Shown in pieces: positions 1,515 to 21,920 of a DNA stretch of 56,242 bases. Position 1 is the stretch's first letter. The number at the start of each line of letters is the position of its first letter. Origin of the DNA: Prorocentrum cordatum (lineage: Eukaryota); the NCBI GenBank assembly GCA_963575745.1, contig CAUYUJ010000100.1:62001-118242 (forward strand), given 5' to 3'. The notes below the pieces were generated by a model. The model was not told the origin of the DNA. It did not search any database and was given only the letters and a program-made list of their open reading frames with translations. Position numbers and translations under genes: made by a program.

Positions 1515-2460
1515 CCATCATCTGTCCACTCCTCCATCTCATATACCGTCATACCTTGGCATCCCATCATCATCAATACATTCTCCGCCCCCCCCCCCGC
1601 CGTCGCGACATTCAGTATCACCGTTCGCGCCTGTCGCCAGCCCAGGGCCCCTCCGCCGTTGATCCAGGCGATCCGCCCCACGGGGCGGTAGACGCCCTTG
1701 ACGTAGACCTGGCGCTTGTCCTCCTTCGTGTGGGTCCGCTTGTCCTGGGGCGGCGGTGGCGGCGCATCTCCATCGCTCACCATGCCCATCCCCTGATCAG
1801 TCGAGCCCCCTTTGCATCGGTCCCTCGGCCCCCCTCCCCTCTATCTTTCCGCCGGCGCATCGGTCCATCGGTCCTCGGGCCATGGGCCCATCGGCCCTCG
1901 TTGTCATGTCTCCCCCCAGGGTTGTGCACGCTGCGTTTCTGTTGGGGCCCAGTGCCCATGAATGTGTCGAACTCGCCTTTGGCCCAGCTCGCCCTGAAAT
2001 CTTTCTTTTTGGCGGTGCTGCCCTTGCCCTTGCTGGCGTCGTACTCGGCGCGCAACTTCTTCCCCGCGGGCGTGTCCGCTCCTTTAGCACGTTGCCATTT
2101 ACCTGCTGCCACCACTTCAAACTCGTCGGTACATTGCCTGTGCTCGAGCGGAAACTGGAAACTGTGTTTCTCGAGCGCCTTCCAGAAGTTCAACTGCTCC
2201 GCATCATCCTTGCCGCCCTGACTCTGGGCGCCATCACTCGTGTCACTTGCCTTCGCGCTCGGGCCGAACCAGTTGCTCTGGTTCTGCAGGTAGCCGCCGC
2301 TGCTGATGTCGCGCATCATCGCGCCCGTCGTCTCGCTGATGTTGTCGCGGCCCTTCTCCGCGAAGACCCCCCTCGGGCTCTTGTTGTTGAACAGCTCGAG
2401 CAAGAGGTCGTTGATTGCCAGCTCGTCGATCTTGTCCCCGCTCAGGGCCTTGTTCAACTT
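1..2460 (-). CDS. Multi-exon gene of unknown function, partial (exons about 1957-2460, 1652-1745, 1140-1258, 510-600, 1-260)
   Basis: GC3-rich coding islands separated by (CAT)n/(CCT)n tracts read coherently: KKKDFRASWAKGEFDTF / DKRTHTKEDKRQVYVKGVYRPVGRIAWINGG / GGDYPSSQAARVVSKAIQIGPPWILFDDASEAIQALHCK / KGHVHCFTEAWTKHKEWSQ. Splice sites were not resolved. Confidence 0.6.
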
Positions 2461-3759
2461 GTCCTGGCGGGGCCGAGGGATGGGGCCCTGTCTTCAGCAT
2501 GCCCGCCCCTCGCCTTGTGCCCCCCTCCCCATCTGGTCCATCCCTGCACCCTCCCGTGAGATCACTCCACATCCCTCCGACCGTCACCGCCAATGACCAC
2601 CACCACCCGATCGCTCTCCGCTTCCCTCTCCGCTCATCCCGCGCCCCATCGAAGGGGGGGGGGGGGGCGGTGATTTCAACCGCGCGGACAAGGGGGGGGG
2701 GGCGGTGGGCGAGGCAGATGAGGCATGGGATGACGACGCCCAGACAGACGCAACATCCCAACGCAAATCCCAACGCATTGTGATTTGCATTGGGATTTGA
2801 TGCGGCGTCGTCATCCCCCATGCCGCATCATTCTCATCCTCCTCCACTATCATCATTATCATCCTCCGCTTCTTCCTACGCCTCCTCCTCCCCCTCCTCC
2901 TCATTCTCCTCCTCCTCCTCCTCCTCCTCCTGCGCCGCCCTCGCACCTTCGCCCTCATCCAGTGTCATCGGATCCGCCGCTGTCCCATTGCGACTCGTCC
3001 ATCATCCCCCTTATTTCCTCATCTCCCCCCTCTGACGGCACGATGCCACGATGCATCGATGCCGAACGCAACGATGATGATTCGACATCTGTGCGCTCGG
3101 CTTCTGTGCAACAGTATCGCACCATCTGGCGTCAACTTGAATCTGGCGAGCTCAGGCGCGGCCTGAACGTCGCGCAGCTGCTTGGGGCCGCTCTTCAGCG
3201 GGCGCGGCGTCGACGCGGTACCGACCAGCGCTGCGCGAACTAAATCCACCTTCGGAGGAGGTGCGCCGAGCCTAGATGGCCCCTGCTGCGGGACCGAGCG
3301 AGGAAGCGTGCTAGGCGCTGCAGGCGCTGCAGGGTGGGTCCGCATCGCCTTCTCCTCGGGCGCACCTGGCGGCTGCTCACCATCCGTTGCGGACGGTCGC
3401 TTCCTGGATGCGGCCGGCCTCTTCTTGATCAGCACGGCGTCGCCATCGGCGCCATCGGGGACCTCCGCCTCCTCCCCCCCCCTCCCCGGCATGCTCATCT
3501 GGCTGGTCGGCCGCGTCGTCTCCGTCAACGTCGGACCCGTCCTGGTCGTCATCATCTCGATGAGCGGGCTCTCCATCGCTGGCGGCGCGGCCGGCCTCGT
3601 CGTCGCGGCAGTGCTTGGACGGCTTCTTGGTGACCTTGGTGCCGCCCTTGGCCTTGGCCGTTGCCTTACGCTTGCCCTTCGGAGCGCTCGTCACCTCGTC
3701 CTGCTTGTCCGTCGTCTCCTGCTTGCCGTGATCTCGAAGAAAGTCGGCCTTCGCCGCCT

Positions 3760-3776
3760 CGATATCGGCCTTGTCC
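3760..3776. repeat. Target-site duplication, left copy
   Basis: CGATATCGGCCTTGTCC, identical to 12724-12740. Confidence 0.95.
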
Positions 3777-3924
3777 ACACATGGTCCATGTATCTACCTT
3801 GGCGCTCGTCCGCGGTAGCATCGTATATCCACCAAGTAAGTACCCTGCTCCACTAGGTTGCCGAACAGGGAGATAGCATTCAAGTCCTCAAACACCGTCA
3901 AGGTCACGATGTCGAAGTGATACT

Positions 3925-4058
3925 CAGCAAAACATGGCAACGTGAGCCTAGGGTGTTCCCACGCATTCGGGGCTTCCCTAGGACTTGCGTTCTGCCAGCA
4001 AACCATGGCAACATGGTCTGAGGTGTTCCCACGCATTCGGGGCTTCCTCGAGAACCGT
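3925..4058. repeat. Tandem ~70-bp hairpin duplication in the LINE 3' UTR
   Basis: The 26-nt core GGTGTTCCCACGCATTCGGGGCTTCC is identical at 3952-3977 and 4022-4047. The flanks differ between copies but are self-complementary in each. Confidence 0.9.
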
Positions 4059-4192
4059 ACTCTGTAGTGATCGGGCCTTCCACGGCCCACTCTTTTCCAG
4101 GATAATATTCATGTTTGCCCGCACCCTGCGTAGTATTCACGAGGCTGCAGTAAGTATAAGATTATGCCATCACCCTGTGTACGTGTGATGAG

Positions 4193-7100
4193 CTATCGTC
4201 CAGTGCAGATGGCTGCACAGAACTCGAAATACTTCCGTTTGGCTGACTTTTTGGAACACTTCATGCACTCGAGCTCCTGACAAACTCGTGCTGGTCGAAA
4301 GGTAAGTAGGACGTGGCATCGGTTGCCTGGCTTCTCGGTGCGTATGTTGTGCTCCACGATAAGTTTGTCGTAGTCCTCTGGCGTACGTTTTTGTCCACAC
4401 TGATGCGGCCCTGACGGCAGGACCCCTGGTGTGCATAGTAGTCGTGGCCATGTGCTGAAGCGTCCAATCCCCGGCGTAGTGAACTTGCACTGTATGCAGA
4501 GCAGGTGCGGGTCTTGGTCTCGCTTGGCTCCAGTAAGCGGACCAAGCACATGGTATCCTTGCTGGCGGGCCTCTCGATTATGTAGAAGACGCTTCTGCTC
4601 ATCAATGAGAGCACGTCCTTGAAGACCCTGAAATTCTCGTTCTTCGTCTGTCGTCCATGTGATCACATTGCGCAACTTCTGGACGGAGACAACGTTCCTG
4701 GTGTGGGTACCCCTCTCTGAGAGTGATGCCACTGATTGCATTGCTCGTGAAGAAAGGTCACTGTCTCGCACTGTCTTGACTATGTTCTCCTTGAGGCAGG
4801 GGACGCTCCATATCGGCTTCGGCGGCGAGCACCAGTCTGGACATACGTCGAGGCTGCCCCTACGGTCAGTAGAGGCGAGGGCCAACGCGTACATCACCTT
4901 CATCGTGTGCTGGTGAGCCACAAAAGACGCTCGGCATTTAAATCCTGGGGCCTTGCGAAGTCCAAGTGGTATCAAGGCGCTTATCTCAGCATGGGTCTCT
5001 CTTGGAGCCAATTTGCATTTGCATAGCTGTGCCATCCTCGTAGCTGCAGTGCTGAAGTATCTGGCCATGCGCACAATCTTTGCCTCACTAGCGCTCTCCT
5101 GCGGCGTGACAAGAGAGAGGCCCGTTACAATAGTGAAGTCGATGGCAAGCTCTACCCAGGATACCGACATTGGCGCTCGTACCGTGTCATCGGCCTCCCA
5201 TTGTAGCTGTGAGAAGTACCATACCACTGCAGGAAATAACGCCTGTTGGTAGTACCAAGCTCGATTTGCCACCGTCTCAGGTAGTATTGGTTTGAACTTC
5301 CAATCGTAAATATTTGGTTGGATTGGTTCCCACTGATAGCCAGGAAATGCTGCCTTCGGGGTCCAATTTGTCGGGTTCGTAGTAGCTTGGTCCAGTGCTA
5401 GTCCCGTGCATGTCTCCTGAGGTCTCGAGCTCGATGACGAGCTAGGTTCCTCAAGGATGGTGGCTGGTGGATCTTCTTCTGGAGCTGCTTTGCGTAGTAG
5501 TCGGCGCCTTGGTGCAGGCGGGGCCGTTGGTGTTGGCTGGGGTGATGTCGAGGAGGTCCGTTGTGGCGGTAGCTGGGGTTGCTCGTCGTCCGAGTCCATG
5601 CCCAGATGCGCCCACGGGTCCTCCTCGTTGTCTTCATCAAGCTGTGCATGTTGTTGACCGTCCAACTCAGCACGTTCCATAGCTTGGGCCTGCTCGCATC
5701 TGTCATGATGTGAATCTCGGCACATTTCTTTGAGCTCTTTTGCTCGGTGCATGAGGATGACCGTCGCCGTGTGCTGAAGAAGATAACATAATTTCTGCTC
5801 CTGCCGATGCTGCTGGCGAATGGTGTCTGGAAGGCCGTGTGACCTTGCCGCACGCACAGCTCCTGCATCTGCCTGGCGATTCATCTCCCACAAGAGTCGT
5901 TCATCTGCTGGGACGTCGCGCTCGCTCGTGTGGGCTTTGACCTTCTGTATTCGAAATAGCTCTCGTCCTTTGGCATTGAGTCCTGTCTCGATGGCCTGCC
6001 AGAGGTCGGTGTGCTGCTTGGTGTTCAGCGCTTCCCCTCGGAGGAGTGCTGAGAAGTTGCGAACGCAGCAGCTGCTGTCCGTCAGGTAGATCTGTTTGCC
6101 CCAGCTCCACGCGACAAAGTGCCGAAGTGCTGCAACCTCTGCTCTCTGAGCTCCCTGTGCGACACTGCGCAGGGGCACTTCAACATTGCATGGATGACCT
6201 CTGCCGTAGTACAGTGAGTAGCCCGATCTGCGTAGACGTAGGTCCGACGCCTGGCCAGGACATGACCCGTCACCAGCTACGACAGTGTAGTCATCGATCT
6301 TTGTGAGAATGTCCTCCTCGTGTCCTCCCACCTCATGCTCACCGTCGGCGTGATGTGGCGGTGCATGTAATGGAGGATCATCTGGCAGTAGTTCACATGC
6401 GAAGGCATCATATTCTGGCTTGTCTGGCAACTGTCCACAGCACAAGAGGCACGTCGGTAGCGCAAGAAGCTCTTCCTTCGTGTAGCTTTGCAATTCCCAT
6501 CTGGGGCAGTCCAATAAGATATGCTGCATAGTCTCGTCAAGGGCGAGGCAAAATGGGCACTTCTTGTGGGCTGGATTCTTGGTGATGTAGTGCAGTCTAT
6601 GTCCTGTGATGGTGCCTCCCTGGAGGTAGGCACGCAAGAACGGGACCTGCTTGGAAGTAAGTTTAGGTACTGGTATGTCCGTGGATCCAAGAAGCAACGG
6701 GGGCTGCTCCTTCGGCTCGTCGTCCACGTCCTCGTCGTCAGGCTTGGTGGTACGGTCAGCTTTGCGCAAGATGGCCGTGGTGACGTGGTAGTTCAGGCCA
6801 ACAGCACAGCCCTTCATGTCCTTGCGCTCCTGTAGCTGAAGATCGGTACGCCACACAAATCGTCGAAGATCCTCTCTCAGTGTATGCTGCCACCAGCCCA
6901 TCGGGTGCTTGGTGAGGTAGATTCGTTGCTGGTTCGCCCTCTCGAAGTAGTCGAAGGCTGGCCATGTCCATTGTAAGTCCTTCAACACAGAGCGTATCCT
7001 GTTGATGGGGCCTGTGTCGTTGTCCTTCACGGTGAATGTTACTCGATGCTGCAGGATGTCCCAGCACTGCTTCGCACGTCGTAGTAGTCGTGCTGCGCTT

Positions 7101-10100
7101 GGGCTGGAGAAGAGCCTTCTCGCAATCACCAGTGGTTGCGCAGTGGCAATCTGCACGGGGTCAAGCAGATGACCTCGAGTAACAAGAGTAAGTGTCATTG
7201 CTGGGGATCGATATGCTCTCCCTCTTCGCCACATGCTTTTTATCACTGCCGATCTAAAGTTAAGATGATTGTGTTTCGGCAGTCGTCGGTATTCTAATCC
7301 TGGCGCAAGTCGTGGTAAGGCTGCTGTTGCCAAAAGACGCTGCTTTCCTTGGAGTCCGAGTGGGGCGGCACCGGTACGCTGAGTTACGCGATATGCTGAG
7401 GTATACCTTCGGCGTCGCTCCGCCTGTGGGCACATTCCCAGCGTACATATCTCTCCACCCACCAGAGTAAAATTCTTCACAATCGATGCTTGGACATGTC
7501 CTTGAGCGTTGAGATGGTGCCTTAGCTCCTTCTCAGCCTTGATCGATGTGGCGAAGTGCTTCGTCTTCTCAACATTGGTCTGAGTACCTGAATGCTGATC
7601 AAATTCAACTGAAATAGTTGTTGCTTTGGCAGTCCGAATAGCATGCTGAGGTCCTTCGGCTCTGAAGTTGCCGTCGTCGATGAAGGATGCGACCTTGACC
7701 TCTGCTTCTTTCTCAAGGGCATGGCTCCAAATCGACATCAATGCGAGCGCCTGCTGCAGGGACCAGGAGTCACCTTGGATAAAACCGTTGCTGCGCTTTG
7801 TCTCTGGGCCTACTGCACGTGCTACCTTCCATCTCGCTCGAAGATCCTCGTAGAAGATGGTGGACGCATGCATGACACCCTCAGGGCAGCCCAGTGCTTT
7901 CATCAATCTGTTGCCTATCTCGTACTCGAGGAGGTCAAAGAACTTTCGGCGATCTGCTGAACATCCTGAGGTCGGAGTACCTGTGATGTGTGCATATTCA
8001 ATGTCCAGCGCCAGTTCCCAGGATACAGCTTGGTAGTGATATCCTTTCCTGGCTCCAATAGCTCCATCATGCAACCAAAGCTCGCGCCAGGATGCCATTT
8101 GAGTAAATCTGTCGCCTGTGACAGCGGTGTATATTGGGCTCAGATTGGTGATTGGCCTCGTGTCCGAAATTGAAGCTGTCCACACATTGTCTGGCTCAAT
8201 CTCTGCAGCAAGGTCAGCCTCCTGATCCCATTTCGGGAGGCAGCTCGTAATTCCAAGAGTCATTGCACGCGGCCATCTCAACCAAGCATCCTCTACTCCT
8301 TTGCAGAGGGTGGCGAACAGGTCACATATACAGGGTGGTAGTAGTCGAAGTTCAGCAACTCTCCACCCGTCAGCTGCGGCAGCGCGGTGCACATTCATTT
8401 TGCAGAATTGTCGATGAAGTCGATGGCCTGTTATGTCCTCGATCTCACATGGATGTTGCTTGATGTATTGGCCGAAACGGGTCTCGAACTTGTCCCATGC
8501 TTTCAGCTCGCCTTTGTTGAAGATCTTGCTCCAGAAAAGATCAACCTGCTGGAGCATCTCCTTTCTTCGTGTGTGAATCTGCGTAGGATCTGCATGACCT
8601 CGTACTGCATGAATTGTTTGGTACTGTCGTTGTTTGATCCACGCATAGACCTCACGTCCGCCAGAGTATCGTAGAGAATCTCTGAGTGTCTTGCGCCAGC
8701 TGTCGATCCTCGCCAGCTTGCGCTCTTTGACGTGCTTGCTGTGCTTGTTCTCCAATGCTGTGGTCCATTTCCCAATCTGGGTAGAACTCGGTAATCCAAT
8801 CGGTATGTCAGCTGGTAGGTTCAGCTCACGTCGTAGTGGTCCTCGTACTTTGCGCCAGAGCGCTTGGGACTTCAATTTCGCAGAAAAATTGGGATGTACG
8901 GCTCCTCGATGCTGTTGTAGTGCCAACTCGGCTAGGCGGCTGATGAGGTTCTCCAGGCGTCGCAGAATGGTCGCCGTGGGTCCTTCTTTCAGCTTGTCTC
9001 GGCCTGCAGGTGGTGCCGTACTTTCCCACGTGGTTAGTTCAGGCTCTTGACTTCGGCCGTGATATACGGCTCCAAAGGTAATGCCAGTGTGCTCAAGTCT
9101 CTTTTCCAGGTAAAGCTCTCCAATTTTTCCGACCAGGGCCCAAGCATCCTCGGCCCGTTCGTCAATGAGTGCTTGCTCGAAGGCTTCGTAGTGTACTTCA
9201 ATGCATTGGCGTCCAAGGGCATCGCTGTCCTCGGCGCTGATCTTCATGACAGACTCCACTGGGTAAGCTCGAGGGATTCTGATACTGTCGAAGGTGTTCG
9301 TGAGCAGTCCAACGTTCAGTGTCATCTCGAGCCCCAGGTGACTTTTGATTCCTAGGTCACGTCGTAGTCGGAACGTCTTGATGGCGTCCCTGGCCGCCGT
9401 GTTGACTATGATGAGGTCTGGGCGACTCACATTCGTGCCGTGTGTAAACTTGCCCCACGAGGGGTCAACTCCATATGTCGGCTCAGCTCCAAACATAGCA
9501 CCTACATCATGCCAACGTCCTGTGGCAAGAATAGCTGCAAGCGTGGAGGAGTGCCCCGTAGTAGTGTTCGCGTCCATGCAGATGACCACAGCTTGATCGC
9601 CAAGGCCTTCAGCATCCTCGAAGGTATAGTGCAGATTCCGATCATTTCGGGTCCTGATCATGTTGTCATGGCCAGCTTCGTTGTAAAGGTTGACGAAGTG
9701 GATGGGACGCGAGCCAAAGAGAGCTACAACCCGAAGCCAGCGGGTCGTCGCATACATCTCCTTGGCTGCTCCATACTTGCGCCCGCCTGGGAGCGTGACC
9801 AGAGATCGCTTAGCAATAGTGGCAACCCCACCCTGCTGCGTACGATGATATTTATCTCCAAGGCATTTCTGAGGTCTGAGTGGGTGCCCAAAAGTATCCT
9901 CATACCCATGAGCTTGACAAGCCTTTGAGCAGCCCATTTGTTGTTTGTAATCCAATCGCGTTTCTTGCAATAGTAGTAGGTCGACGTCCATAGTGCCCAT
10001 ACGTCCCACGAACGAATTCCAAGATGTAGCATTTGCTGACAGAATAGTAGCCAGAGCAGGAATTTCTCCCTCCACTGCCGCCCTCTGAGGTGGCGGCTGT

Positions 10101-10129
10101 TTGCCTCGCATGCGTCGCGAGGCCATCAT
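4193..10129 (-). CDS. Retrotransposon ORF2 polyprotein: apurinic-like endonuclease, reverse transcriptase, CCHC zinc knuckle, RNase H, C-terminal Cys/His region
   Basis: 1978 aa uninterrupted. EEP motifs: ILSANATSW, LLLLQETRL, GGVA, ICMDAN, SRPDLII, SHLGL. RT motifs: AADGWRVAEL, RPITNLS, DRRKFFD, GFIQGDSWS, SFIDD. Zinc knuckle: CPFC...HILLDC. RNase H: GDGSC, AQRAEVAAL, YLTDS, KVKAH, NRQADAGA. Confidence 0.97.
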   Translation of the reverse strand: MMASRRMRGKQPPPQRAAVEGEIPALATILSANATSWNSFVGRMGTMDVDLLLLQETRLDYKQQMGCSKACQAHGYEDTFGHPLRPQKCLGDKYHRTQQGGVATIAKRSLVTLPGGRKYGAAKEMYATTRWLRVVALFGSRPIHFVNLYNEAGHDNMIRTRNDRNLHYTFEDAEGLGDQAVVICMDANTTTGHSSTLAAILATGRWHDVGAMFGAEPTYGVDPSWGKFTHGTNVSRPDLIIVNTAARDAIKTFRLRRDLGIKSHLGLEMTLNVGLLTNTFDSIRIPRAYPVESVMKISAEDSDALGRQCIEVHYEAFEQALIDERAEDAWALVGKIGELYLEKRLEHTGITFGAVYHGRSQEPELTTWESTAPPAGRDKLKEGPTATILRRLENLISRLAELALQQHRGAVHPNFSAKLKSQALWRKVRGPLRRELNLPADIPIGLPSSTQIGKWTTALENKHSKHVKERKLARIDSWRKTLRDSLRYSGGREVYAWIKQRQYQTIHAVRGHADPTQIHTRRKEMLQQVDLFWSKIFNKGELKAWDKFETRFGQYIKQHPCEIEDITGHRLHRQFCKMNVHRAAAADGWRVAELRLLPPCICDLFATLCKGVEDAWLRWPRAMTLGITSCLPKWDQEADLAAEIEPDNVWTASISDTRPITNLSPIYTAVTGDRFTQMASWRELWLHDGAIGARKGYHYQAVSWELALDIEYAHITGTPTSGCSADRRKFFDLLEYEIGNRLMKALGCPEGVMHASTIFYEDLRARWKVARAVGPETKRSNGFIQGDSWSLQQALALMSIWSHALEKEAEVKVASFIDDGNFRAEGPQHAIRTAKATTISVEFDQHSGTQTNVEKTKHFATSIKAEKELRHHLNAQGHVQASIVKNFTLVGGEICTLGMCPQAERRRRYTSAYRVTQRTGAAPLGLQGKQRLLATAALPRLAPGLEYRRLPKHNHLNFRSAVIKSMWRRGRAYRSPAMTLTLVTRGHLLDPVQIATAQPLVIARRLFSSPSAARLLRRAKQCWDILQHRVTFTVKDNDTGPINRIRSVLKDLQWTWPAFDYFERANQQRIYLTKHPMGWWQHTLREDLRRFVWRTDLQLQERKDMKGCAVGLNYHVTTAILRKADRTTKPDDEDVDDEPKEQPPLLLGSTDIPVPKLTSKQVPFLRAYLQGGTITGHRLHYITKNPAHKKCPFCLALDETMQHILLDCPRWELQSYTKEELLALPTCLLCCGQLPDKPEYDAFACELLPDDPPLHAPPHHADGEHEVGGHEEDILTKIDDYTVVAGDGSCPGQASDLRLRRSGYSLYYGRGHPCNVEVPLRSVAQGAQRAEVAALRHFVAWSWGKQIYLTDSSCCVRNFSALLRGEALNTKQHTDLWQAIETGLNAKGRELFRIQKVKAHTSERDVPADERLLWEMNRQADAGAVRAARSHGLPDTIRQQHRQEQKLCYLLQHTATVILMHRAKELKEMCRDSHHDRCEQAQAMERAELDGQQHAQLDEDNEEDPWAHLGMDSDDEQPQLPPQRTSSTSPQPTPTAPPAPRRRLLRKAAPEEDPPATILEEPSSSSSSRPQETCTGLALDQATTNPTNWTPKAAFPGYQWEPIQPNIYDWKFKPILPETVANRAWYYQQALFPAVVWYFSQLQWEADDTVRAPMSVSWVELAIDFTIVTGLSLVTPQESASEAKIVRMARYFSTAATRMAQLCKCKLAPRETHAEISALIPLGLRKAPGFKCRASFVAHQHTMKVMYALALASTDRRGSLDVCPDWCSPPKPIWSVPCLKENIVKTVRDSDLSSRAMQSVASLSERGTHTRNVVSVQKLRNVITWTTDEEREFQGLQGRALIDEQKRLLHNREARQQGYHVLGPLTGAKRDQDPHLLCIQCKFTTPGIGRFSTWPRLLCTPGVLPSGPHQCGQKRTPEDYDKLIVEHNIRTEKPGNRCHVLLTFRPARVCQELECMKCSKKSAKRKYFEFCAAICTGR

Positions 10130-10560
10130 TGCTCCGACTTTATTTCCAAGGACGTCTTGAGCTTCTTTGTGAACTCCTCAAGCTCGGCCTTCCGTTTGCG
10201 TTCTTCATCGGTAACAAGGGTCCCTGTCGCTGGCGATGGCGGTGCTGATGTGGGCGCTGGGGCGATCATCATGTCCAAACATCGCGCAAGTCCCTGACCT
10301 TGAAGATGTAATTGTGATAAAAAAAAAAAAAAAAAAAGACTAAAAAAAAATATGTTAAAAAACAGAAACAAAAAATAAAAGAAAAAAAAAAAAAAAAAAA
10401 AAGAATTAAAAAAAAAAAAAAAAAATAAAAGAGCCAAAAAAAAAACACAAAAAAAAAAAAGGAAAAAGTAATAAACAAAAAAACAAAAAAAACAAAAAAA
10501 AAAACAAAGCAAAAAAAAAAATAAAAAACAAAGACTAAAAAAAAAGAAAACAAAAAACTA

Positions 10561-10592
<32 letters not shown>

Positions 10593-12619
10593 AAAAAAAA
10601 TTATATTGCAGCATTGTGACTCCCCACCGCGGCCCCGATGGCTGACGTTAGAAATTCACGAAATTCTTTTGATAGTCCAGCTCCTGCTTCTGGCTGCTGA
10701 GCGGGTTGTTGCGCACGAGGTTGCATCTGTACATCCTGAGCTTGCACCGGCACGTTCGGTCGAGTCAATTGCGTGGCAATGCTCTTCTTAGTTGTGACAG
10801 GTGGCTTCGGCGTAGACGTCGATGTACTTGCAGAGTATTGTGTGACAAGCTCAGCCCACGTAGGTGCTGTGGTCGGAGCTTCCGTAATCTTTTCCACTCT
10901 TGGATTGATCGTTGCCTGACATCCTCCAATAGATATATCACGACTAGCAGGGGCTGACTCAGCACGCGCTCGCACCACTGGGACACGTCGTTTGCCGTTG
11001 CCTCGCTGCCGTATGCTCACAAATTCAGATTGCCATCCCATCTGCGTCTTGAGCTGGTCGCAGAGGGCCTTGCCGTCGATCAGCGCTGGCAGCGGGGAGA
11101 TCTCGTAGATCGTTGCCGCTGGTGGCGCTCTCTGTTGTAGTGCTTGCCATGCTGCTGCTGCACTTTGCTTTTTGACACGAAAGAACAAGTTATGTGATTT
11201 GAAGTGGTAGCCGAGGCCGCATGCTCCTTCCAGGGTCGTCGTCAGCTCGATGGCCTCGCTGATGGTCTTGCCACGCTGGAATGGCACAAACTCCTCATCT
11301 TCTTTTTCTTGCTTGAGTACAGCTCCATCACTCCCAATGTTCGATCTCTGAAAGAAAACTCCATCAGGACCAGAGACTTCACGAAGCTGTTGGACTCTGT
11401 TTGCTGGTATACGAAATAACGCTGATATGACACGTCGACCTGCATCATCCTCGTTGAACATGCGCCCGCTGTAGCATATGACTTCAAGGTCCGTCGGGAT
11501 GAGCTTGGTCTTCACAATATTGGCCATCTCGGCATCCAAAACACGCCAAGGCGGCAGCTCGTTGTACTTCTTTCGTTGGCCTCCTCCTCCTGCTTCAGCT
11601 CGCTTGTCGCGGGCCGCTGTAGCTTGTCGGTGAAGACGCGCCAGTTCTTTGAATAGCTTCTCTGTCGAGTGTTCTTCCAAGACCGCCACAGACATGAGAA
11701 CCTCTGATTGGCACTCGATCTTTGTGGGGACACGCGTAGGTTTGATGTCCGCACCCTGCACACCAACATGTTGCCAGACAAACAACTTGCGTAGCTCACG
11801 GCGGCCGTCTGGGTGGGTAAGCGGTACACTTAATAATGATATTTTATCCGTCAGCCCTCTTTGTGCACACTGAAGGACAAGATCTTTCGGAAGACTATCT
11901 GGCGGCTGTGCCAAGACGAACCCAAAGGGGTCTTTCGGCAACTCTTTGCTCCAGAAATCCTTGTCTGACAGAAGCTGCGCCAGCTCGTTCACTGTGACCA
12001 GGTGGATCCGCTTCATGTCATCATATTGCGTTGGTAGCCCGCGTACAGTCGGTAGTGACCAGTCTGCATCGTCGAGCTTGGTTGTCAGTTGCCACGTCGG
12101 CTGTGGTGTGGTCGCTGACTTCTTTTTCTTTTTCACTTTCTTCTTCTTGGGCTCCGTGTCCGTGTCAGGGAGCTTCGAGCCAAGCGGTCTCTCCTTGAGC
12201 CACTTAGTGATCTCTGGAAAGATTTTCTCGGCCTCCAACTTTGATATTTCTGCCATTCTTTCTTTGCTGATGTTCCGCAGGTGGTCATACGTCTTCTGAG
12301 CCTGGGATACCTCTTTCATTTCGAGCACAGTCATGACTCGAGATGCCATCATCGCTGGAGTGTTGGCCAGCTTCGCCAGTCGTTTGCGTAGTGCAGTCTT
12401 CGCCCCCGGCCCATTGCCGTGGAGCGCGTGCTGAAGTCGATTCCACTCCTGGTGGGTAATAAGCCACCTATATCCAAGTGAATATTCTCGATCCCCTGGA
12501 AAGATGAAGCCCCAACAACATCTCTCCACAAAATTGATGCTAATATTCTGAAGATAATATATGTGGACGTACTTCGCGACGCTATGGACAAACTCGTAAT
12601 ACCCATGGTCCGTCGTCAT
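10126..12619 (-). CDS. Retrotransposon ORF1 (nucleic-acid-binding/gag-equivalent), interrupted by an A-rich insert; start at 12619 or 12352 uncertain
   Basis: Long open frame directly upstream of ORF2, with a basic NLS-like KKKKVKKKKK. Deleting 10321-10603 joins ...HNAAI to LSQLHLQG... in frame. The stop overlaps the ORF2 ATG. Confidence 0.8.
10321..10603 (+). other. 283-nt degenerate poly(A) insert within ORF1 (probable read/assembly artefact or poly(A)-only insertion)
   Basis: Almost pure A with scattered C/G/T, no flanking duplication; removing it restores the frame. Confidence 0.75.
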
Positions 12620-12723
12620 GACAACCGAGAACCTGAAGCTGTGGTTCAGAAGGTTGTACGTCTCGGCAGAGTCGCCCTTGGAGTCTCTGACGAGGCCCCT
12701 CTGGTCGATCTCCACTATGTCAC

Positions 12724-12740
12724 CGATATCGGCCTTGTCC
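12724..12740. repeat. Target-site duplication, right copy
   Basis: CGATATCGGCCTTGTCC, identical to 3760-3776. Confidence 0.95.
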
Positions 12741-13829
12741 TTCTTGCCATCGCAGTAGTCCTTGCCCATCTGGATGATGAGCGATTTGGCAGCCTCGAAG
12801 TACTTCTCGTCGCACCCCACGAGCTGGCAGAGCTGTTTGCCTCCACGACTAATTCGAACCCACGTCCCCTTCGCCTTGTGGTTGACAATCTCGCACTTGA
12901 TGGTCTCCTGCTTAGGGCGCGCGCCTCTGAACAAGATCGTCGGGGATGACTTTTGCTGCCCGGCCATCCCTGGCGACGCGTCGGGCACTGGCCACCGATG
13001 CCCGTTGCTCCAGGTCCCGACCAGCAGCTCAGACTTGTCCTCGACGACCGCCCTGACGTACACTGGAATGCCACTGCCGCCCGCGCGAAGTCTCCACGCG
13101 GACTGTGGGTGGTCAGAACACCTCCGAACGACGTTTGGCGATCACCGACCACAGTCACGCCCCTCACACTCCGTGTGAATTCAATGTTGGATGGGAACGG
13201 TTTTCGCTGAGACGTCGCCTGAAGAGGTCCTGACCACCCGAAGTGCCAGCCGTCGGCGCTGTGAACGATCTCGAGCCCACATCGGCTGTACCGCCTACCG
13301 TCCTTGACAATCACGCTGTCCGATGAGGTGCGTGTCGCTGTGCGTTCGCCCGTGGCATCCTTTTCTGGTGCCTCCCCTATCCACGTTTGTGTATTGATCG
13401 CGTGCATGGCGTCTCCCCCAACCTCCTATCTTACCTTATACCACCCCCGCTCTACGTGTGCGAATCTCCCCCCCGCTACTTGCCCCCCCCCCCCCCCCTC
13501 AGTCTGTAGCGTGGACAGGGTTGGCAACATGTCCTGGGGACTCGGGACATCCTGAGGCTCGCGTTCCCCGATCCCGCTGCTATCGGCGGAGATGTCGATT
13601 TGCGGCTGGCTCTCGTAGGAATCGGCGGGCGGGTCGTCGGCGTCGTCGCCGTCGTCGTCGCCACCCCCCTCCTTCGCTGGCCCGAAAGCCTCTTGCGCCC
13701 ACGCGGTCTCCCTCGGGCGTCGGATCGCACGACTGGCCCCGACCAATGCCCCCGACCCCTGCCTTCGAGTCTCGAATCCACACCGCGGCGACGAGCACCA
13801 GCCCCTGTGCCGACAACATCAGTGACACG

Positions 13830-14377: not shown

Positions 14378-14450
14378 GGTATCGAGGTGGTATATCCGTA
14401 AGGGCTTCGCCCCCTGCCGCCGGCCCCCTCTCTCGGAGAATGGGCCATGG

Positions 14451-14550
14451 NNNNNNNNNNNNNNNNNNNNNNNNNNNNNNNNNNNNNNNNNNNNNNNNNN
14501 NNNNNNNNNNNNNNNNNNNNNNNNNNNNNNNNNNNNNNNNNNNNNNNNNN
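14451..14550. other. Assembly gap (100 N)
   Basis: Run of N. Confidence 1.
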
Positions 14551-16410: not shown

Positions 16411-17242
16411 TCCGACGCGGCACATTGGCAATTTATGCCCTGGCGCTCATAAAGACTGTTGAGGAATGGGGATTAAGGCTTAAGGGATCAGGCGAAGGAC
16501 CTGAGGACACGCCCGCTCCGTGCCCAGAGGCACGGTGGCGGATGCGCACATGATACCGGGGTTTCCGCGCCGAATAGTTGGATGGGCCCTCTGCTGTTGC
16601 CCCTTTGAATTTGTTGGGTGGATCCTGTCAATTGTTGCATATGTGTCGGGTACGTCCCTCATTTTCTGTCTCTTGGAGACCCCCCTTGTCGGGCGTCTTG
16701 AAGGCATCTTGGGCCATCTCGGGCTATCATAGCCGTGTTCGAGGCGTCCTGGTTGCCATTTCGGCCCTTTTTGGGACCGTCTTGGGCGAGCTTGAAAACG
16801 TCTCGGGGTCGAACTGCACCATCAAGGCAGTCGAATGGGACATTTGGAGCACGGCGGTAGAGGACGACGGACAAACATGAATCAACCGTGTGTCTCCAGT
16901 TCAGCACGTCAGGCATTCCGCTGCAGAAGAAACGGGGGGCGGCCGATCGGATACGCCAACGCCGAGTCACCGCCGCCCCTGGCCTTTCACAACAGCACCA
17001 CCCTGCTGGCCCTCCGCATCCTGCACGTGCCCCGCTTCCTCCGCTCTCCTCCTCGGCCTCCCCCTCCTCCTCCTCCTCCTCCTCCTCCTTCTTCCCCTCC
17101 TCGTCCTTTTCCTCCCCCCCCCCCTCCTCCCTCCCTCATCTCATCTCCCCCTCCCCCCTTCTGCCCCCTCTCCCGCCCCCCCCCTCCCCCTCGGGGCACA
17201 CCCCGGAGAGAGCTCCCGCGGCCCCCTCGCGGGGCGGCGGGC

Positions 17243-17320
17243 AACCTGGTGAGGAGGAACTGCCTCCACTTCTGCGACGAGCTGTGCCGGGCGCTGGGCG
17301 TCGAGCCCATCCCAAAGTGG
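17243..17320 (+). CDS. Isolated exon or fragment of a PPPDE/DeSI-family peptidase containing the catalytic Cys
   Basis: NLVRRNCLHFCDELCRALGVEPIPKW matches the family pattern Y-x-L-x-x-x-N-C-N-H-F...L...LGV..IP.W. Confidence 0.75.
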
Positions 17321-17669
17321 ACCAGGAGACGGGCAGAGGAGGCCGGAAAGATCGTCGTGCGTGGGTGCTTGAGTCGGGGGTGGACAGAACCCCCAGCAGT
17401 GACACGTCGATTAGTGAACTGTCCGTCTTCGGTTCTCGAGAGGGCGCCGTGGCCGTCATTTTCCAGGCCTGGGCCCGCCTGGTTTGGGCCTCAGGTCGTT
17501 TTCACTAAACCACGTTTTACTAAAGGGAGGTCTGTCCATCCCCGGTTGAGGGGTCGTGGGGGGGAGGTCCTGACCCCCCCCTCTCCAGAATCCCCGGCAC
17601 TTCCTGCCCCCCTCTCCAGGGGGTCGGCCCCGCCGTCCTTCGAAGGTCGGGGGGGCAGGGAACGACGGC

Positions 17670-18120
17670 GATGACGACGACGACGACCACCCCCCTTGCG
17701 CGCCGGCAGCCGACGGCGACAACGACGACGAGGCCGACGACGACGCCGCCGCCGACGACGACGACGACGATGACCACGAATACGACGGCGACGGGGCCAC
17801 CGACGTCGACGTCGACGGCCAAAAAAAGGTGGACGACGACGACGACGACGACGGACGACTCGGTAAACACGAGGATTACGGCGACCACAACGACAACGAA
17901 AACGACGAAGATCGGGGACGACCGACGACTACGTCGTGTCGACGGTGGATACGATAAACACGATGAGGAGCACGACGCTGACGAGGACGACAACGACGAC
18001 AATAACGACGACGACGATGACGCTGACGACACTGACGACGACGCGGACAATGACGACGACAATGACGACGACGCTGATTCATACTGACTCTGTCGACGAC
18101 GCTGACGTTGGCGACGACGA
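17670..18120. repeat. Degenerate (GAC)n microsatellite
   Basis: Direct inspection. Confidence 0.9.
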
Positions 18121-18749: not shown

Positions 18750-19500
18750 GATGGCTGAGCATACCATCTCCTCGCTGCTCCCCGTGAGGCGGGTCATCTT
18801 GCTGGCGATGGCCTGGTTGATTGCGTCGCGGATTTCGACGGGTATGATTTCATCGATGGAGTCGGTCATGGAAGGATCCTCCGTGCCAGCGTAGCAGGTG
18901 TCAACAGCCTCGTGCTCCTTCGGGCGGCTGATCTCGTGCCTTGTGGTCGAGGTATGGTGGCACTGCGTACCCAGCTTGAGGTGACTGCCCAATTCTCTCC
19001 GAAACTGCTTTCGTCCACGTTCGTCTCGGCCATCTCGGCGTAGTTGGAGTCGGTCATGGAGGGAGCATCCATACCAGCGTAGCATGTGTCAACAATCTCG
19101 CGCGCCTTCAGCTCGTCGCCGTTCGTCTCGGCCATCTCGGCGTACATGTCCAGCGGCTGGTTCGTGTTGAGCTCGGCCACGTAGCGCGATCCCTCTTCAA
19201 CTGTGTGAGAGAAATCGCACGTGAACTGCTTGCTCTCGTTTTGAGCTCTCTTCGGGGACGAGGTCGTGCATGCGCGTGGGCTCGGGCACCTCGTCGGTGA
19301 CGACGGCGGTGTGCGGTAGGTCATCTGCATGTCGTAGAACTGGTCGGTCCTCTGCTCGTAGCTCAAGTCCTGGCGGAAGGCCAGTGGCAGCACCCATCCG
19401 GAAGTGGCGCCGTCGAAGCCGATCGCGGTGCGCCTGAGCTCGTGAGCGCCGCCCACCTGCGGGGGCGCCACAACGTGCTTGACTCCGCCGAGGTCATGTG
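18750..19500 (-). pseudogene. Decayed intronless coding fragment with internal duplications, product unknown
   Basis: GC3-rich; VDTCYAG...PSMTDS and YAEMAETN each occur twice; frameshifts between protein-like segments. Confidence 0.5.
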
Positions 19501-19684
19501 GTGTTCGGCCCTCTGAAAGTGTTCGGCTGGTGCGCGGCGCCCGCGCGCTGGAGCACCACACGGCGACATGGCGACATGGCGGTGTGCGGGGTATCTTCGG
19601 GCCGTCCGCCTTTTGGGCTAGGCGGGGAGGGCGCTGGAAAAAGGCCGCTGCTCCTTAAGAAGACCTGAGCGCGCGGCGGCCTTT

Positions 19685-21920
<2,236 letters not shown>

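What the first reader, a model, noticed from the sequence alone, without database searches (positions are those of the whole stretch)
3760..12740. Young, complete, tail-less APE-RT-RNase H LINE with exact ends defined by a 17-bp TSD
Seen: a perfect TSD, an intact 1978-aa ORF2, and a sense-strand 3' end ...TACATGGACCATGTGT abutting the TSD with no poly(A) or short-repeat tail, ending instead in a small ACATGG/CCATGT palindrome. Established: APE-type LINEs normally end in poly(A) or short tandem repeats that template the start of target-primed reverse transcription. Inference: this is a recently active family that may start reverse transcription from a structured 3' end, possibly a poorly described dinoflagellate clade.
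Basis: partly seen in the sequence, partly recalled or inferred. Interest (0 to 1): 0.8.

Follow-up and report, generated by a model that had tools for sequence, protein, structure and literature searches.

The report
Young tail-less LINE of dinoflagellate type
This is a real, recently inserted, intact jumping gene of the LINE kind that ends without the usual poly(A) tail, but LINEs with this build and tail-less ends have already been described in dinoflagellates, so it is a new member of a known kind.

Summary
An 8,947-bp element (3777-12723, minus strand) is bracketed by a perfect 17-bp duplication. Taking it out restores one continuous host reading frame. It carries an intact 1,978-aa ORF2. 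Its sense-strand 3' end (...ACATGGACCATGTGT) abuts the duplication with no poly(A) or short-repeat tail. ORF2 reads endonuclease (APE), reverse transcriptase (FIDD), CCHC zinc finger and RNase H with its catalytic residues. After these comes a roughly 170-aa C-terminal domain of unknown fold, shared by 36 of the 150 best relatives. The family is multi-copy in one DNA run: contig depth is 30-76 inside the element against 3-10 in the flanks.

De Mendoza et al. 2018 (PMC5890265) state that dinoflagellate SymbioLINE-Dnmt elements (APE, RT, RNase H) have target-site duplications, conserved UTRs and lack poly(A) tails. On my RT tree this ORF2 falls on the same deep side as a DNMT-carrying LINE protein of that build. 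The nearest full-length relative is only 35% identical.

I could not obtain other DNA copies. Whether the whole family ends at this nucleotide therefore remains untested, and so does priming from a structured 3' end.

Verdict: new member of a known kind, of modest interest.

The parts
3760..3776 (.). Target-site duplication, copy next to the element's 3' end
   Evidence: 17 of 17 identical to 12724-12740.
3777..12723 (-). Whole LINE insertion, 8,947 bp
   Evidence: Bracketed by the TSD. Excising it restores the host ORF. GC 0.52 against about 0.6 in the flanks. No LTR or TIR.
3777..3793 (-). Terminal 17 nt: 7-bp stem with a GAC loop, ending on the last nucleotide. No poly(A) or repeat tail.
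   Evidence: RNAfold -4.4 kcal/mol. TRF finds no tandem repeat here.
3777..4192 (-). 3' UTR, 416 nt
   Evidence: Follows the ORF2 stop. Folds to -150.6 kcal/mol, z -2.9 against 100 shuffles. No Rfam family with E below 7.9.
3925..4047 (-). Two copies (70-nt spacing) of a hairpin module with an exact 26-nt core (3952-3977 and 4022-4047) and differing stems
   Evidence: The module has very high summed contig depth in run X1 (4147 at position 3979). It also occurs in other sequence contexts in marine metagenome runs X2 and X4.
4193..10129 (-). ORF2, 1,978 aa, intact
   Evidence: 1,687 relatives at E<=1e-3 in the representative library.
9260..10057 (-). APE-type endonuclease domain (about aa 25-290; QET 55-57, MDAN 185-188, RPD 236-238, SH 263-264)
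   Evidence: A profile of ORF2 plus 30 relatives matches the L1 endonuclease at E 1.7e-12 and exonuclease III / APE1. E56, D186, D238, N243 and H264 are invariant or nearly so. Pfam does not hit this protein directly.
7430..8452 (-). Reverse transcriptase (about aa 560-900; FIDD at 816-819)
   Evidence: Pfam RVT_1 at aa 674-864, E 7.6e-5, below the curated cut-off. The family profile matches human L1 ORF2p at E 2.8e-71 and R2 at E 2e-42.
6503..6655 (-). CCHC zinc-binding motif after the RT (aa 1159-1209)
   Evidence: Pfam zf-RVT, E 0.0031, weak. C..C..H..C columns are nearly invariant in alignment A2.
5855..6292 (-). RNase H domain (about aa 1280-1425; D1287, E1331, D1351, H1400, D1421)
   Evidence: phmmer to PDB RNase H1, E 0.0016. 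E 2.5e-24 to the Pfam-defined RNase_H stretch of relative P0013, and hits to 12 further relatives. No direct Pfam hit.
4850..5359 (-). Conserved C-terminal domain of unknown fold (aa 1591-1760, motif ELAIDF)
   Evidence: An iterated HMM finds it in 36 of the 150 listed relatives. AlphaFold pLDDT is about 90 for ORF2 aa 1619-1754. No convincing PDB match: Foldseek best E 0.64, VIA best Z 4.8.
10319..10600 (-). 282-nt T-rich (sense-strand) spacer between ORF1 and ORF2
   Evidence: TRF reports a period-1 A run on the + strand. Sequence read.
10126..10272 (-). 48-codon upstream ORF whose TGA overlaps the ORF2 ATG (ATGA)
10601..12619 (-). ORF1, 672 aa counted from the first in-element ATG. The frame stays open upstream through the junction. 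An alternative start lies at 12352 (MMASR).
   Evidence: No Pfam family, no homologue, no Atlas hit. The single-sequence fold is poor.
12724..12740 (.). Target-site duplication, copy next to the element's 5' end

Best explanation
This is a recently inserted, apparently full-length, autonomous non-LTR retrotransposon (LINE). It belongs to a deep-branching protist group that also holds DNMT-carrying LINE proteins of the SymbioLINE-Dnmt build.

Shown:
- Two sense-strand ORFs. ORF2 reads APE endonuclease, RT (FIDD), CCHC finger and RNase H with an intact D-E-D-(H)-D set. It ends in a conserved C-terminal domain of unknown fold.
- The element sits in a host open reading frame, in the same orientation, between perfect 17-bp duplications.
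- The element ends without a poly(A) or microsatellite tail.
- Related sequence is multi-copy in a DNA run.

Inferred:
- It moved by target-primed reverse transcription. The APE domain nicked the bottom strand at 5'-...CCTTGTCC/TTCTTG-3'. The freed 3'-OH primed cDNA synthesis directly on the last nucleotides of the element RNA. A second nick 17 bp away on the top strand produced the duplication.
- With no A-tail and no microhomology between primer and RNA end, the ORF2 protein most likely finds its template by binding its own 3' UTR in cis. This is 'stringent-type' recognition, as in L2-type LINEs and R2. It would then start at or very near the RNA's 3' terminus.
- The tail-less end is most likely a trait of this LINE group, as published for SymbioLINE-Dnmt, and not a peculiarity of this copy.
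For: - Ends and TSD. The TSD is not a chance repeat.
- The host ORF is restored by excision.
- No tail.
- Domains: RVT_1 and zf-RVT, both weak. The family profile matches L1 ORF2p at 2.8e-71, R2 at 2e-42 and L1 EN at 1.7e-12. Catalytic columns are conserved. RNase H is supported.
- Relatives: 1,687 at E<=1e-3, the best full-length one at 35% identity. Pfam on 31 aligned members: RVT_1 29/31, Exo_endo_phos 24/31, RNase_H 5/31, OTU 5/31, DNA_methylase 1/31.
- RT tree of 69 rows: the query lies on the 21-row side (SH-like 97) with the DNMT-bearing P0058 and 9 of the 13 RNase_H-labelled rows.
- Multi-copy with a 5' fall-off: in run X1 the summed contig depth is 30-76 in ORF2, 10-25 in the 5' 1 kb and 3-10 in the flanks. 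Of 489 laid contigs, 80 are >=99% identical, 138 are 95-99%, 136 are 90-95% and 135 are below 90%.
- Published precedent: SymbioLINE-Dnmt 'show flanking ... [quoted passage not shown]
- The 3' UTR folds better than shuffles, z -2.9.
- No primer/RNA microhomology: the TSD cannot be extended.
Against: - Only one copy could be examined at the nucleotide level, so the tail-less end is not shown to be shared by the family.
- The terminal hairpin is weak (-4.4 kcal/mol).
- No Rfam family matches the 3' UTR.
- The link to SymbioLINE rests on one unnamed protein, P0058. It is identified only by its domain build, is 25% identical, and sits on a tree of long branches made with FastTree and rooted at the midpoint.
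- ORF1 here has no DNMT.
- Pfam hits neither the APE nor the RNase H domain of this protein directly. Both rest on profiles or transitive matches.
- The host organism is unknown. A DinoSL search in the window found nothing.
- Run X1 may be the sample the window was assembled from, so its >=99% contigs may include this very copy.
Confidence: 0.7

Rival explanations
1. The family normally carries a poly(A) or short-repeat tail, and this copy is atypical. Reverse transcription started internally, or on a 3'-shortened RNA, so the true 3' end lies beyond what was copied.
For: Only one copy was seen. A 416-nt 3' UTR does not prove completeness. The list of contig 'loose ends' from run X1 was cut (73 rows not shown), so junctions at 3777 in other copies could be neither seen nor excluded.
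Against: Published LINEs of the same build in dinoflagellates lack poly(A) tails as a family trait (PMC5890265). The copy is otherwise complete, with intact ORFs and a perfect TSD. The end coincides exactly with the 3' arm of a small hairpin.
Confidence: 0.2
2. The tail-less end is a family trait, but no RNA structure is involved. The RT simply starts on whatever 3' end the processed transcript has, by end-to-end template jumping or non-templated priming as described for R2 (recalled). The small palindrome and the 3' UTR hairpins are incidental or serve other ends, such as RNA stability or transcript 3'-end formation.
For: The terminal hairpin is weak (-4.4 kcal/mol). A 6+6 palindrome in one copy may be chance. 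The abundant hairpin module lies 150-270 nt from the end, not at it. In another contig the module is followed by unrelated sequence (record 9 of X2).
Against: The 3' UTR as a whole folds better than 99 of 100 shuffles. The two module copies keep an exact 26-nt core while their stems differ by paired changes, which suggests selection on structure. The published relatives have conserved 3' UTRs.
Confidence: 0.25
3. It is not a transposition product. The 17-bp repeat would be a chance match or an assembly join, and the block a mis-assembled or horizontally acquired segment.
For: The window contains a 100-N gap at 14450-14549. No contig listed is shown bridging either junction.
Against: The 17-mer pair exceeds chance. 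Excising the block restores an open host frame exactly. The composition shifts at both ends. The content is a complete LINE. Depth steps from 3-10 to 30-76 at the borders.
Confidence: 0.02

Closest known systems
SymbioLINE-Dnmt of Symbiodinium (de Mendoza et al. 2018, Nat Commun, PMC5890265; passages read; the main supplementary PDF could not be read)
   Same: Two-ORF LINE. ORF2 has Exo_endo_phos, RVT_1 and RNase_H. It is flanked by TSDs, has conserved UTRs and is stated to lack poly(A) tails. A protein of that build (P0058: DNMT + APE/RT + RNase_H) is a relative of this ORF2 (E 5.4e-41) and lies on the same side of my RT tree.
   Different: ORF1 here has no DNMT or any other recognisable domain. 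Identity to P0058 is only 25%. The query's own clade (P0003, P0005, P0017; SH-like 100) is separate from it. The host is unknown, and the window's GC (about 0.6) is not evidence either way. The paper also mentions Symbiodinium LINEs without DNMT, but the passages I read do not describe their ends.
Stringent-type LINEs (L2-type zebrafish and eel elements; PMC4176376, abstract start seen in the listing) and R2 (recalled)
   Same: The proposed mechanism is the same: the ORF2 protein recognises its own 3' UTR or tail RNA rather than a poly(A) tract. R2 also has no A-tail (recalled).
   Different: L2-type elements end in short tandem repeats that are needed for initiation (recalled), and there are none here. 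R2 uses a restriction-like endonuclease and a single rDNA target. This element has an APE endonuclease and sits in an ordinary ORF. The family profile matches R2 RT at E 2e-42, weaker than L1.
Human LINE-1 ORF2p (PDB 8sxt, 8c8j and others)
   Same: It is the best solved-structure match to the family profile: E 2.8e-71 over the RT region and 1.7e-12 over the endonuclease. It is a bicistronic APE-type LINE that makes TSDs of similar length (recalled).
   Different: L1 ends in poly(A) and is a 'relaxed' type. It has no RNase H and lacks the C-terminal domain found here. Only L1 and R2 full-length LINE proteins are in the PDB, so this match does not assign a clade.
RNase H-bearing APE LINE clades (I, Ingi/Vingi, Tad1, Loa, Nimb; recalled from Repbase classification, not tested)
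   Same: Domain order APE - RT - (zinc finger) - RNase H.
   Different: The conserved domain after the RNase H (36 of 150 relatives) is not a feature I recall for them.
Dualen/RandI LINEs of green algae (recalled: APE + RT + RNase H + a C-terminal restriction-like endonuclease, with an OTU protease)
   Same: A long ORF2 with extra domains. 5 of 31 aligned relatives carry an OTU protease. A conserved extra domain follows the RNase H.
   Different: This ORF2 has no OTU hit. Its C-terminal domain gave no nuclease-like structural match. The best matches were weak winged-helix-like ones, Z 4.2-4.8.

Membership tests
APE-type non-LTR retrotransposon (LINE) | Reverse transcriptase of the LINE type with a YxDD-type catalytic box | tested here: met
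   FIDD at aa 816-819. Pfam RVT_1 E 7.6e-5, below the cut-off. The family profile matches L1 ORF2p at 2.8e-71 and R2 at 2e-42.
APE-type non-LTR retrotransposon (LINE) | N-terminal apurinic/apyrimidinic-like endonuclease with catalytic residues | tested here: met
   Profile positions 32-279 match L1 EN (1.7e-12) and exonuclease III. E56, D186, D238, N243 and H264 are conserved. There is no direct Pfam hit on this protein; 24 of 31 relatives hit Exo_endo_phos.
APE-type non-LTR retrotransposon (LINE) | Target-site duplication and no terminal repeats (LTR or TIR) | tested here: met
   Perfect 17-bp TSD. The only other internal repeats are the T-rich spacer and the 26-nt 3' UTR core.
APE-type non-LTR retrotransposon (LINE) | 3' poly(A) or short tandem-repeat tail (usual, not universal) | tested here: not met
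   There is none at 3777 or just inside it. This is not a defining feature, since tail-less LINEs are published.
APE-type non-LTR retrotransposon (LINE) | Multi-copy family with 5'-truncated members | tested here: inconclusive
   In run X1 the summed contig depth is 30-76 in ORF2, 10-25 near the 5' end and 3-10 in the flanks. Contig depths are not copy numbers, and no individual truncated copy was seen.
SymbioLINE-Dnmt (PMC5890265) | C5 cytosine methyltransferase encoded in ORF1 | tested here: not met
   No DNA_methylase hit, or any other family, in ORF1 at E<=0.1. No homologue.
SymbioLINE-Dnmt (PMC5890265) | ORF2 with Exo_endo_phos, RVT_1 and RNase_H | tested here: met
SymbioLINE-Dnmt (PMC5890265) | TSDs present and poly(A) tail absent | tested here: met
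   Met for this one copy.
SymbioLINE-Dnmt (PMC5890265) | RT nests among SymbioLINE RTs | tested here: inconclusive
   The query lies on the same 21-row side (SH-like 97) as P0058, the one DNMT-bearing protein, but in a different sub-clade. The tree is a FastTree with long branches and a midpoint root, and holds no named SymbioLINE sequence.
SymbioLINE-Dnmt (PMC5890265) | Host is a symbiodiniacean dinoflagellate | not testable with these tools
   No genome is held. Run organisms are coded. No DinoSL relic in the window.
L1 clade | RT groups with L1 references; poly(A) tail; ORF1 with coiled coil, RRM and CTD | tested here: inconclusive
   L1 ORF2p is the best PDB match, but only L1 and R2 are available there. 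There is no poly(A). The ORF1 fold is unresolved, pLDDT 38. No Repbase references were at hand.
I / Ingi / Tad1-type RNase H-bearing clades | RT phylogeny with clade references | not testable with these tools
   No reference sequences of these clades can be obtained. Only the domain order agrees.
Dualen/RandI | Second, restriction-like endonuclease at the C-terminus | tested here: inconclusive
   The C-terminal domain model (pLDDT about 90 for aa 1619-1754) found no nuclease fold. Foldseek best E 0.64, VIA best Z 4.8.

The most novel reading that the evidence does not exclude
The roughly 50-nt hairpin module that occurs twice in the 3' UTR has an exact 26-nt core and stems that differ by paired changes. 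The novel reading is that it is the RNA element by which this group of LINE reverse transcriptases recognises its template. Its far higher abundance than the LINE body in run X1, and its presence in other sequence contexts in marine metagenome runs, would then mean it is shared with non-autonomous (SINE-like) or many sister elements. That would give the first defined LINE 3'-recognition signal and LINE/parasite partnership in dinoflagellate-type genomes. The long poly(U) spacer and the AUGA stop/start overlap before ORF2 would be adaptations for expressing ORF2 in a trans-splicing host.
Probability: 0.15. Interest if true: 0.55.

Novelty: new member of a known kind. Interest (0 to 1): 0.25.

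Why it matters
LINEs are thought to drive the massive retroposition of genes seen in dinoflagellate genomes, yet very few individual elements have been described at nucleotide resolution. This copy has exact ends, intact ORFs and a clean empty site. It could therefore serve as a reference for annotating the family and for asking how a tail-less LINE picks its template. Its sequence is new: the nearest full-length relative is 35% identical, ORF1 has no relatives, and a conserved C-terminal domain has no known fold. The headline feature is not new, however. A tail-less APE-RT-RNase H LINE with TSDs is already in print for SymbioLINE-Dnmt, and recognition of a 3' UTR by the LINE protein is an established mechanism. 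The finding refines annotation but does not open a new question.

Tried and rejected
Searches for other DNA copies (the decisive test), all unsuccessful:
- No genome is held for the window.
- Viral contigs: the 3'-terminal 22-mer, the 22-nt hairpin core and the last 499 aa of ORF2 all gave nothing.
- Metagenome contigs: the 3'-terminal 20-mer gave one locus, L001. blastn showed it shares no other similarity with the window, so it is a chance match.
- Genome contigs: the hairpin core gave 0 matches. The ORF2 C-terminus gave 34 pattern matches, none confirmed.
- tblastn of ORF2 and the 150 relatives found no other LINE remnant in the window.
- Read laying lists no loose end at 3777 or 12723, but 73 rows of that list were not shown, so this says nothing.

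Other searches that led nowhere:
- The search for homologous proteins found nothing for ORF2 aa 1-1450 or for ORF1 among near-length proteins. The exhaustive search did find ORF2 relatives, so the blank reflects the word index.
- Rfam on 3600-4400 gave only E>=7.9 noise. ARAGORN found no tRNA-like part.
- The ORF1 single-sequence fold was unusable, mean pLDDT 38. The Atlas had no hit for ORF1.
- Fold search of the C-terminal domain gave no match worth naming.
- DinoSL 21-mer with up to 3 mismatches: 0 matches in the window. This is no evidence against a dinoflagellate.
- Pfam on 28 other window ORFs gave one hit above its cut-off (a PPPDE peptidase piece at 16835-17674) and nothing for the interrupted host ORF.
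- Earlier findings of this scan: none.

Literature:
- Searches for 'Ambal' and for dinoflagellate LINEs gave nothing on 3' ends.
- The readable supplements of PMC5890265 (the peer-review file and two others) say nothing on tails. Its main supplementary PDF was too large to read.

Tree and one rejected idea:
- The first IQ-TREE-type run did not finish in time. The FastTree result was used instead.
- I considered that the + strand A-run at 10319-10600 might be the poly(A) tail of a second, opposite-strand element. I rejected this because the + strand upstream of it is the antisense of ORF2 and has no coding capacity, and a single TSD brackets the whole block.

Full report
**1. What is in the sequence.** The 17-mer CGATATCGGCCTTGTCC occurs at 3760-3776 and again at 12724-12740. 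The bases just outside the two copies differ, so the repeat is exactly 17 bp. It is not low-complexity. In 20 mononucleotide shuffles of the window, repeated 17-mers appeared 0-2 times per shuffle, 6 in all. The 8,947 bp between the copies have GC 0.52, while the 1-kb bins on either side have 0.60-0.63. When the block and one repeat are removed in silico, the minus strand reads as one uninterrupted host frame across the junction. The ends of the insertion are therefore exact. The element lies on the minus strand. Its sense strand ends ...GGTAGATACATGGACCATGTGT, directly followed by the duplication. Tandem Repeats Finder reports nothing between 3735 and 10319, so there is no A-run or short-repeat tail. 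The element has no LTRs or terminal inverted repeats.

**2. Coding content.** ORF2 (4193-10129) is open for 1,978 codons. Pfam alone sees only a sub-threshold RVT_1 (aa 674-864, E 7.6e-5) and zf-RVT (aa 1159-1209, E 0.0031).

An exhaustive HMMER search with aa 1-1200 against 1.84 billion representatives found 1,687 relatives at E<=1e-3 and 137 at E<=1e-30. The best long relative, P0003, is 35% identical over 968 residues. A handful of short fragments are 87-99% identical.

I built a profile of ORF2 plus 30 long relatives (alignment A1). It matches human L1 ORF2p at E 2.8e-71, R2 proteins at E 2e-42, and the L1 endonuclease, exonuclease III and APE1 over profile positions 32-279 at E down to 1.7e-12. 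The endonuclease residues E56, D186, D238, N243 and H264 are invariant or nearly so in A1. The RT box reads FIDD at 816-819.

Residues 1280-1425 match PDB RNase H1 only weakly (E 0.0016). They match the Pfam-defined RNase_H stretch of relative P0013 at E 2.5e-24, and those of 12 further relatives. The catalytic set D1287, E1331, D1351, H1400 and D1421 is in place.

Beyond the RNase H lies a domain at aa 1591-1760 with the motif ELAIDF. An iterated HMM finds it in 36 of the 150 listed relatives. AlphaFold with a 30-row alignment models ORF2 aa 1619-1754 at pLDDT about 90. Neither Foldseek (best E 0.64) nor the all-against-all aligner (best Z 4.8, weak winged-helix-like rows) gives a usable match.

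ORF1 runs from 12619 or from 12352 down to 10601. It has no Pfam family, no homologue, no Atlas neighbour and no usable fold.

**3. Copy number and age.** No genome is held for the window. One DNA run, X1, holds the stretch. When its contigs are laid at >=85% identity, the summed depth is 3-10 in the flanks, 30-76 through ORF2 and 10-25 in the 5'-most kilobase. Of 489 laid contigs, 80 are >=99% identical, 138 are 95-99%, 136 are 90-95% and 135 are below 90%. This fits a multi-copy family with members of several ages and some 5' truncation. Contig depths are not copy numbers, though, and X1 may be the sample from which the window was assembled. Marine metagenome runs X2 and X4 hold short pieces 97-99% identical to ORF2. 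A seawater metatranscriptome contig (X5) covers 4060-4195 with one mismatch. That last point is only a weak hint of expression. Intact ORFs and a perfect TSD make this copy young.

**4. Where it belongs.** Pfam on the 31 A1 members gives RVT_1 in 29, Exo_endo_phos in 24, RNase_H in 5, OTU protease in 5 and DNA_methylase in 1. The methylase-bearing protein, P0058, reads DNMT (142-275), then APE/RT, then RNase_H (1823-1974).

That is the build published for SymbioLINE-Dnmt of Symbiodinium. The legend of Fig. 1e in de Mendoza et al. [quoted passage not shown] The text adds that DNMT-less LINEs coexist with them (PMC5890265; passages read).

I made a FastTree of the RT region from 69 rows: the query plus the 68 hits that covered at least 450 of the 591 query positions. 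The other 82 listed hits were left out for lack of coverage. The tree puts the query in a clade with P0003, P0005 and P0017 (SH-like 100). That clade lies on a 21-row side (SH-like 97) which also holds P0058 and 9 of the 13 rows labelled RNase_H. The other 48 rows hold the remaining 4.

Several caveats apply to this tree. Branches are long and the root is a midpoint. Four rows were never Pfam-scanned. No named reference of any LINE clade could be obtained. The placement is therefore suggestive, not a clade assignment. L1 ORF2p being the best PDB match means little, because only L1 and R2 full-length LINE proteins have been solved.

**5. The 3' end.** I could not obtain a second copy at the nucleotide level. 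Three viral-contig scans found nothing. Two genome-contig scans found nothing. The window holds no other remnant. Whether the family as a whole ends at this base is therefore untested.

What can be said is limited. The last 17 nt can form a 7-bp stem with a GAC loop that ends on the final nucleotide, but at -4.4 kcal/mol this is weak. The 416-nt 3' UTR folds to -150.6 kcal/mol, z -2.9 against shuffles. No Rfam family fits. There is no microhomology between the inferred primer (...CCTTGTCC-3') and the RNA end.

**6. Most likely mechanism.** The mechanism is ordinary target-primed reverse transcription. An APE nick on the bottom strand at ...GTCC/TTCTTG frees a 3'-OH. cDNA synthesis starts at the very end of the RNA. 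A second nick 17 bp away on the top strand gives the duplication. These steps are inferred from the anatomy. With no A-tail and no microhomology, template choice most likely relies on the protein binding its own 3' UTR. This is the 'stringent' mode known from L2-type LINEs (PMC4176376, abstract start seen in the listing) and from R2 (recalled).

I put 0.7 on the overall reading. Within that, it is near-certain that this is a LINE insertion. I give about two in three that the tail-less end is a family trait, and about one in two that RNA structure in the 3' UTR is what is recognised.

The rivals are:
- An atypical, internally primed copy of a tailed family (0.2).
- A tail-less family that needs no structure (0.25 for that mechanistic variant).
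- A chance repeat or assembly artefact (0.02).

**7. Comparison and novelty.** It works like a stringent-type LINE and looks like the published dinoflagellate SymbioLINEs minus the DNMT. It fails one defining feature of SymbioLINE-Dnmt, the DNMT in ORF1, so I do not file it under that name. I file it as a new, sequence-divergent member of the same kind of LINE.

**8. Things seen in passing.**
- The 3' UTR carries two copies, 70 nt apart, of a hairpin module with an exact 26-nt core (3952-3977 and 4022-4047). The stems differ by two paired changes. In X1 the summed contig depth over this core reaches 4147, against 30-76 for the LINE body. The module also turns up in marine metagenome contigs in other sequence contexts.
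- A 282-nt T-rich spacer on the sense strand separates ORF1 from ORF2.
- A 48-codon upstream ORF ends in a TGA that overlaps the ORF2 ATG.
- The same 25-nt start context (20 of 25 identical, both encoding MMASR) recurs inside ORF1 at 12352.
- The ORF1 frame stays open through the 5' junction into the interrupted host ORF, giving 820 codons.

These points feed the most novel reading that the data do not exclude: that the hairpin module is the recognition signal of this LINE group and is shared with abundant non-autonomous elements. I give that about 0.15.

Noticed in passing
window 3925-4047 (minus strand; cores at 3952-3977 and 4022-4047): A hairpin module occurs twice in the 3' UTR, with an exact 26-nt core and stems that differ by two paired changes. 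In run X1 its summed contig depth (4147 at position 3979) is far above that of the LINE body (30-76) and the flanks (3-10). It also occurs in marine metagenome runs X2 and X4, next to unrelated sequence. It could be a shared 3' UTR signal, a SINE-like unit or a satellite unit.
   Followed up: partly
window 10319-10600: A 282-nt T-rich stretch on the element's sense strand (an A-run on the + strand) lies between the ORF1 stop and ORF2. Short-read contigs break there. In a trans-splicing host, a long polypyrimidine tract followed by AG before ORF2 could be a splice-acceptor signal. This is speculation.
   Followed up: no
window 10126-10272 (minus strand) and 12328-12352 (minus strand): A 48-codon upstream ORF ends with a TGA that overlaps the ORF2 ATG (ATGA), an arrangement typical of termination-reinitiation. 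A 25-nt start context (20 of 25 identical, both encoding MMASR) is repeated inside ORF1 at 12352, where a short frame also ends in an overlapping TGA.
   Followed up: partly
window 12620-13063 (minus strand): The ORF1 frame has no stop from the element's 5' end back through the TSD into the interrupted host ORF. This gives an 820-codon host-LINE fusion frame. It is probably chance, since the insertion is in the same orientation and frame.
   Followed up: no
window 2000-3776 and 12741-13100 (minus strand): The interrupted host ORF has a lysine-rich middle and an acidic tail. It has no Pfam family in either half and low depth in X1 (3-10), so it is a low-copy sequence of unknown function.
   Followed up: partly
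window 19500-21600: About 2 kb of GAT/GCT-type trinucleotide-rich repeats (GATGATGCTGATGATGA recurs 12 or more times) with strong GC skew and GC down to 0.41. Long ORFs are open on both strands.
   Followed up: no
relatives P0027, P0060, P0076, P0088 (OTU) and P0058 (DNMT): Relatives of this ORF2 carry different N-terminal additions (OTU cysteine protease, C5 DNA methylase). Nearly all long ones share the ELAIDF C-terminal domain. This points to a large, modular and largely unnamed LINE group.
   Followed up: partly
window 14450-14549: A run of 100 N (assembly gap) lies 1.7 kb from the element's 5' side.
   Followed up: no
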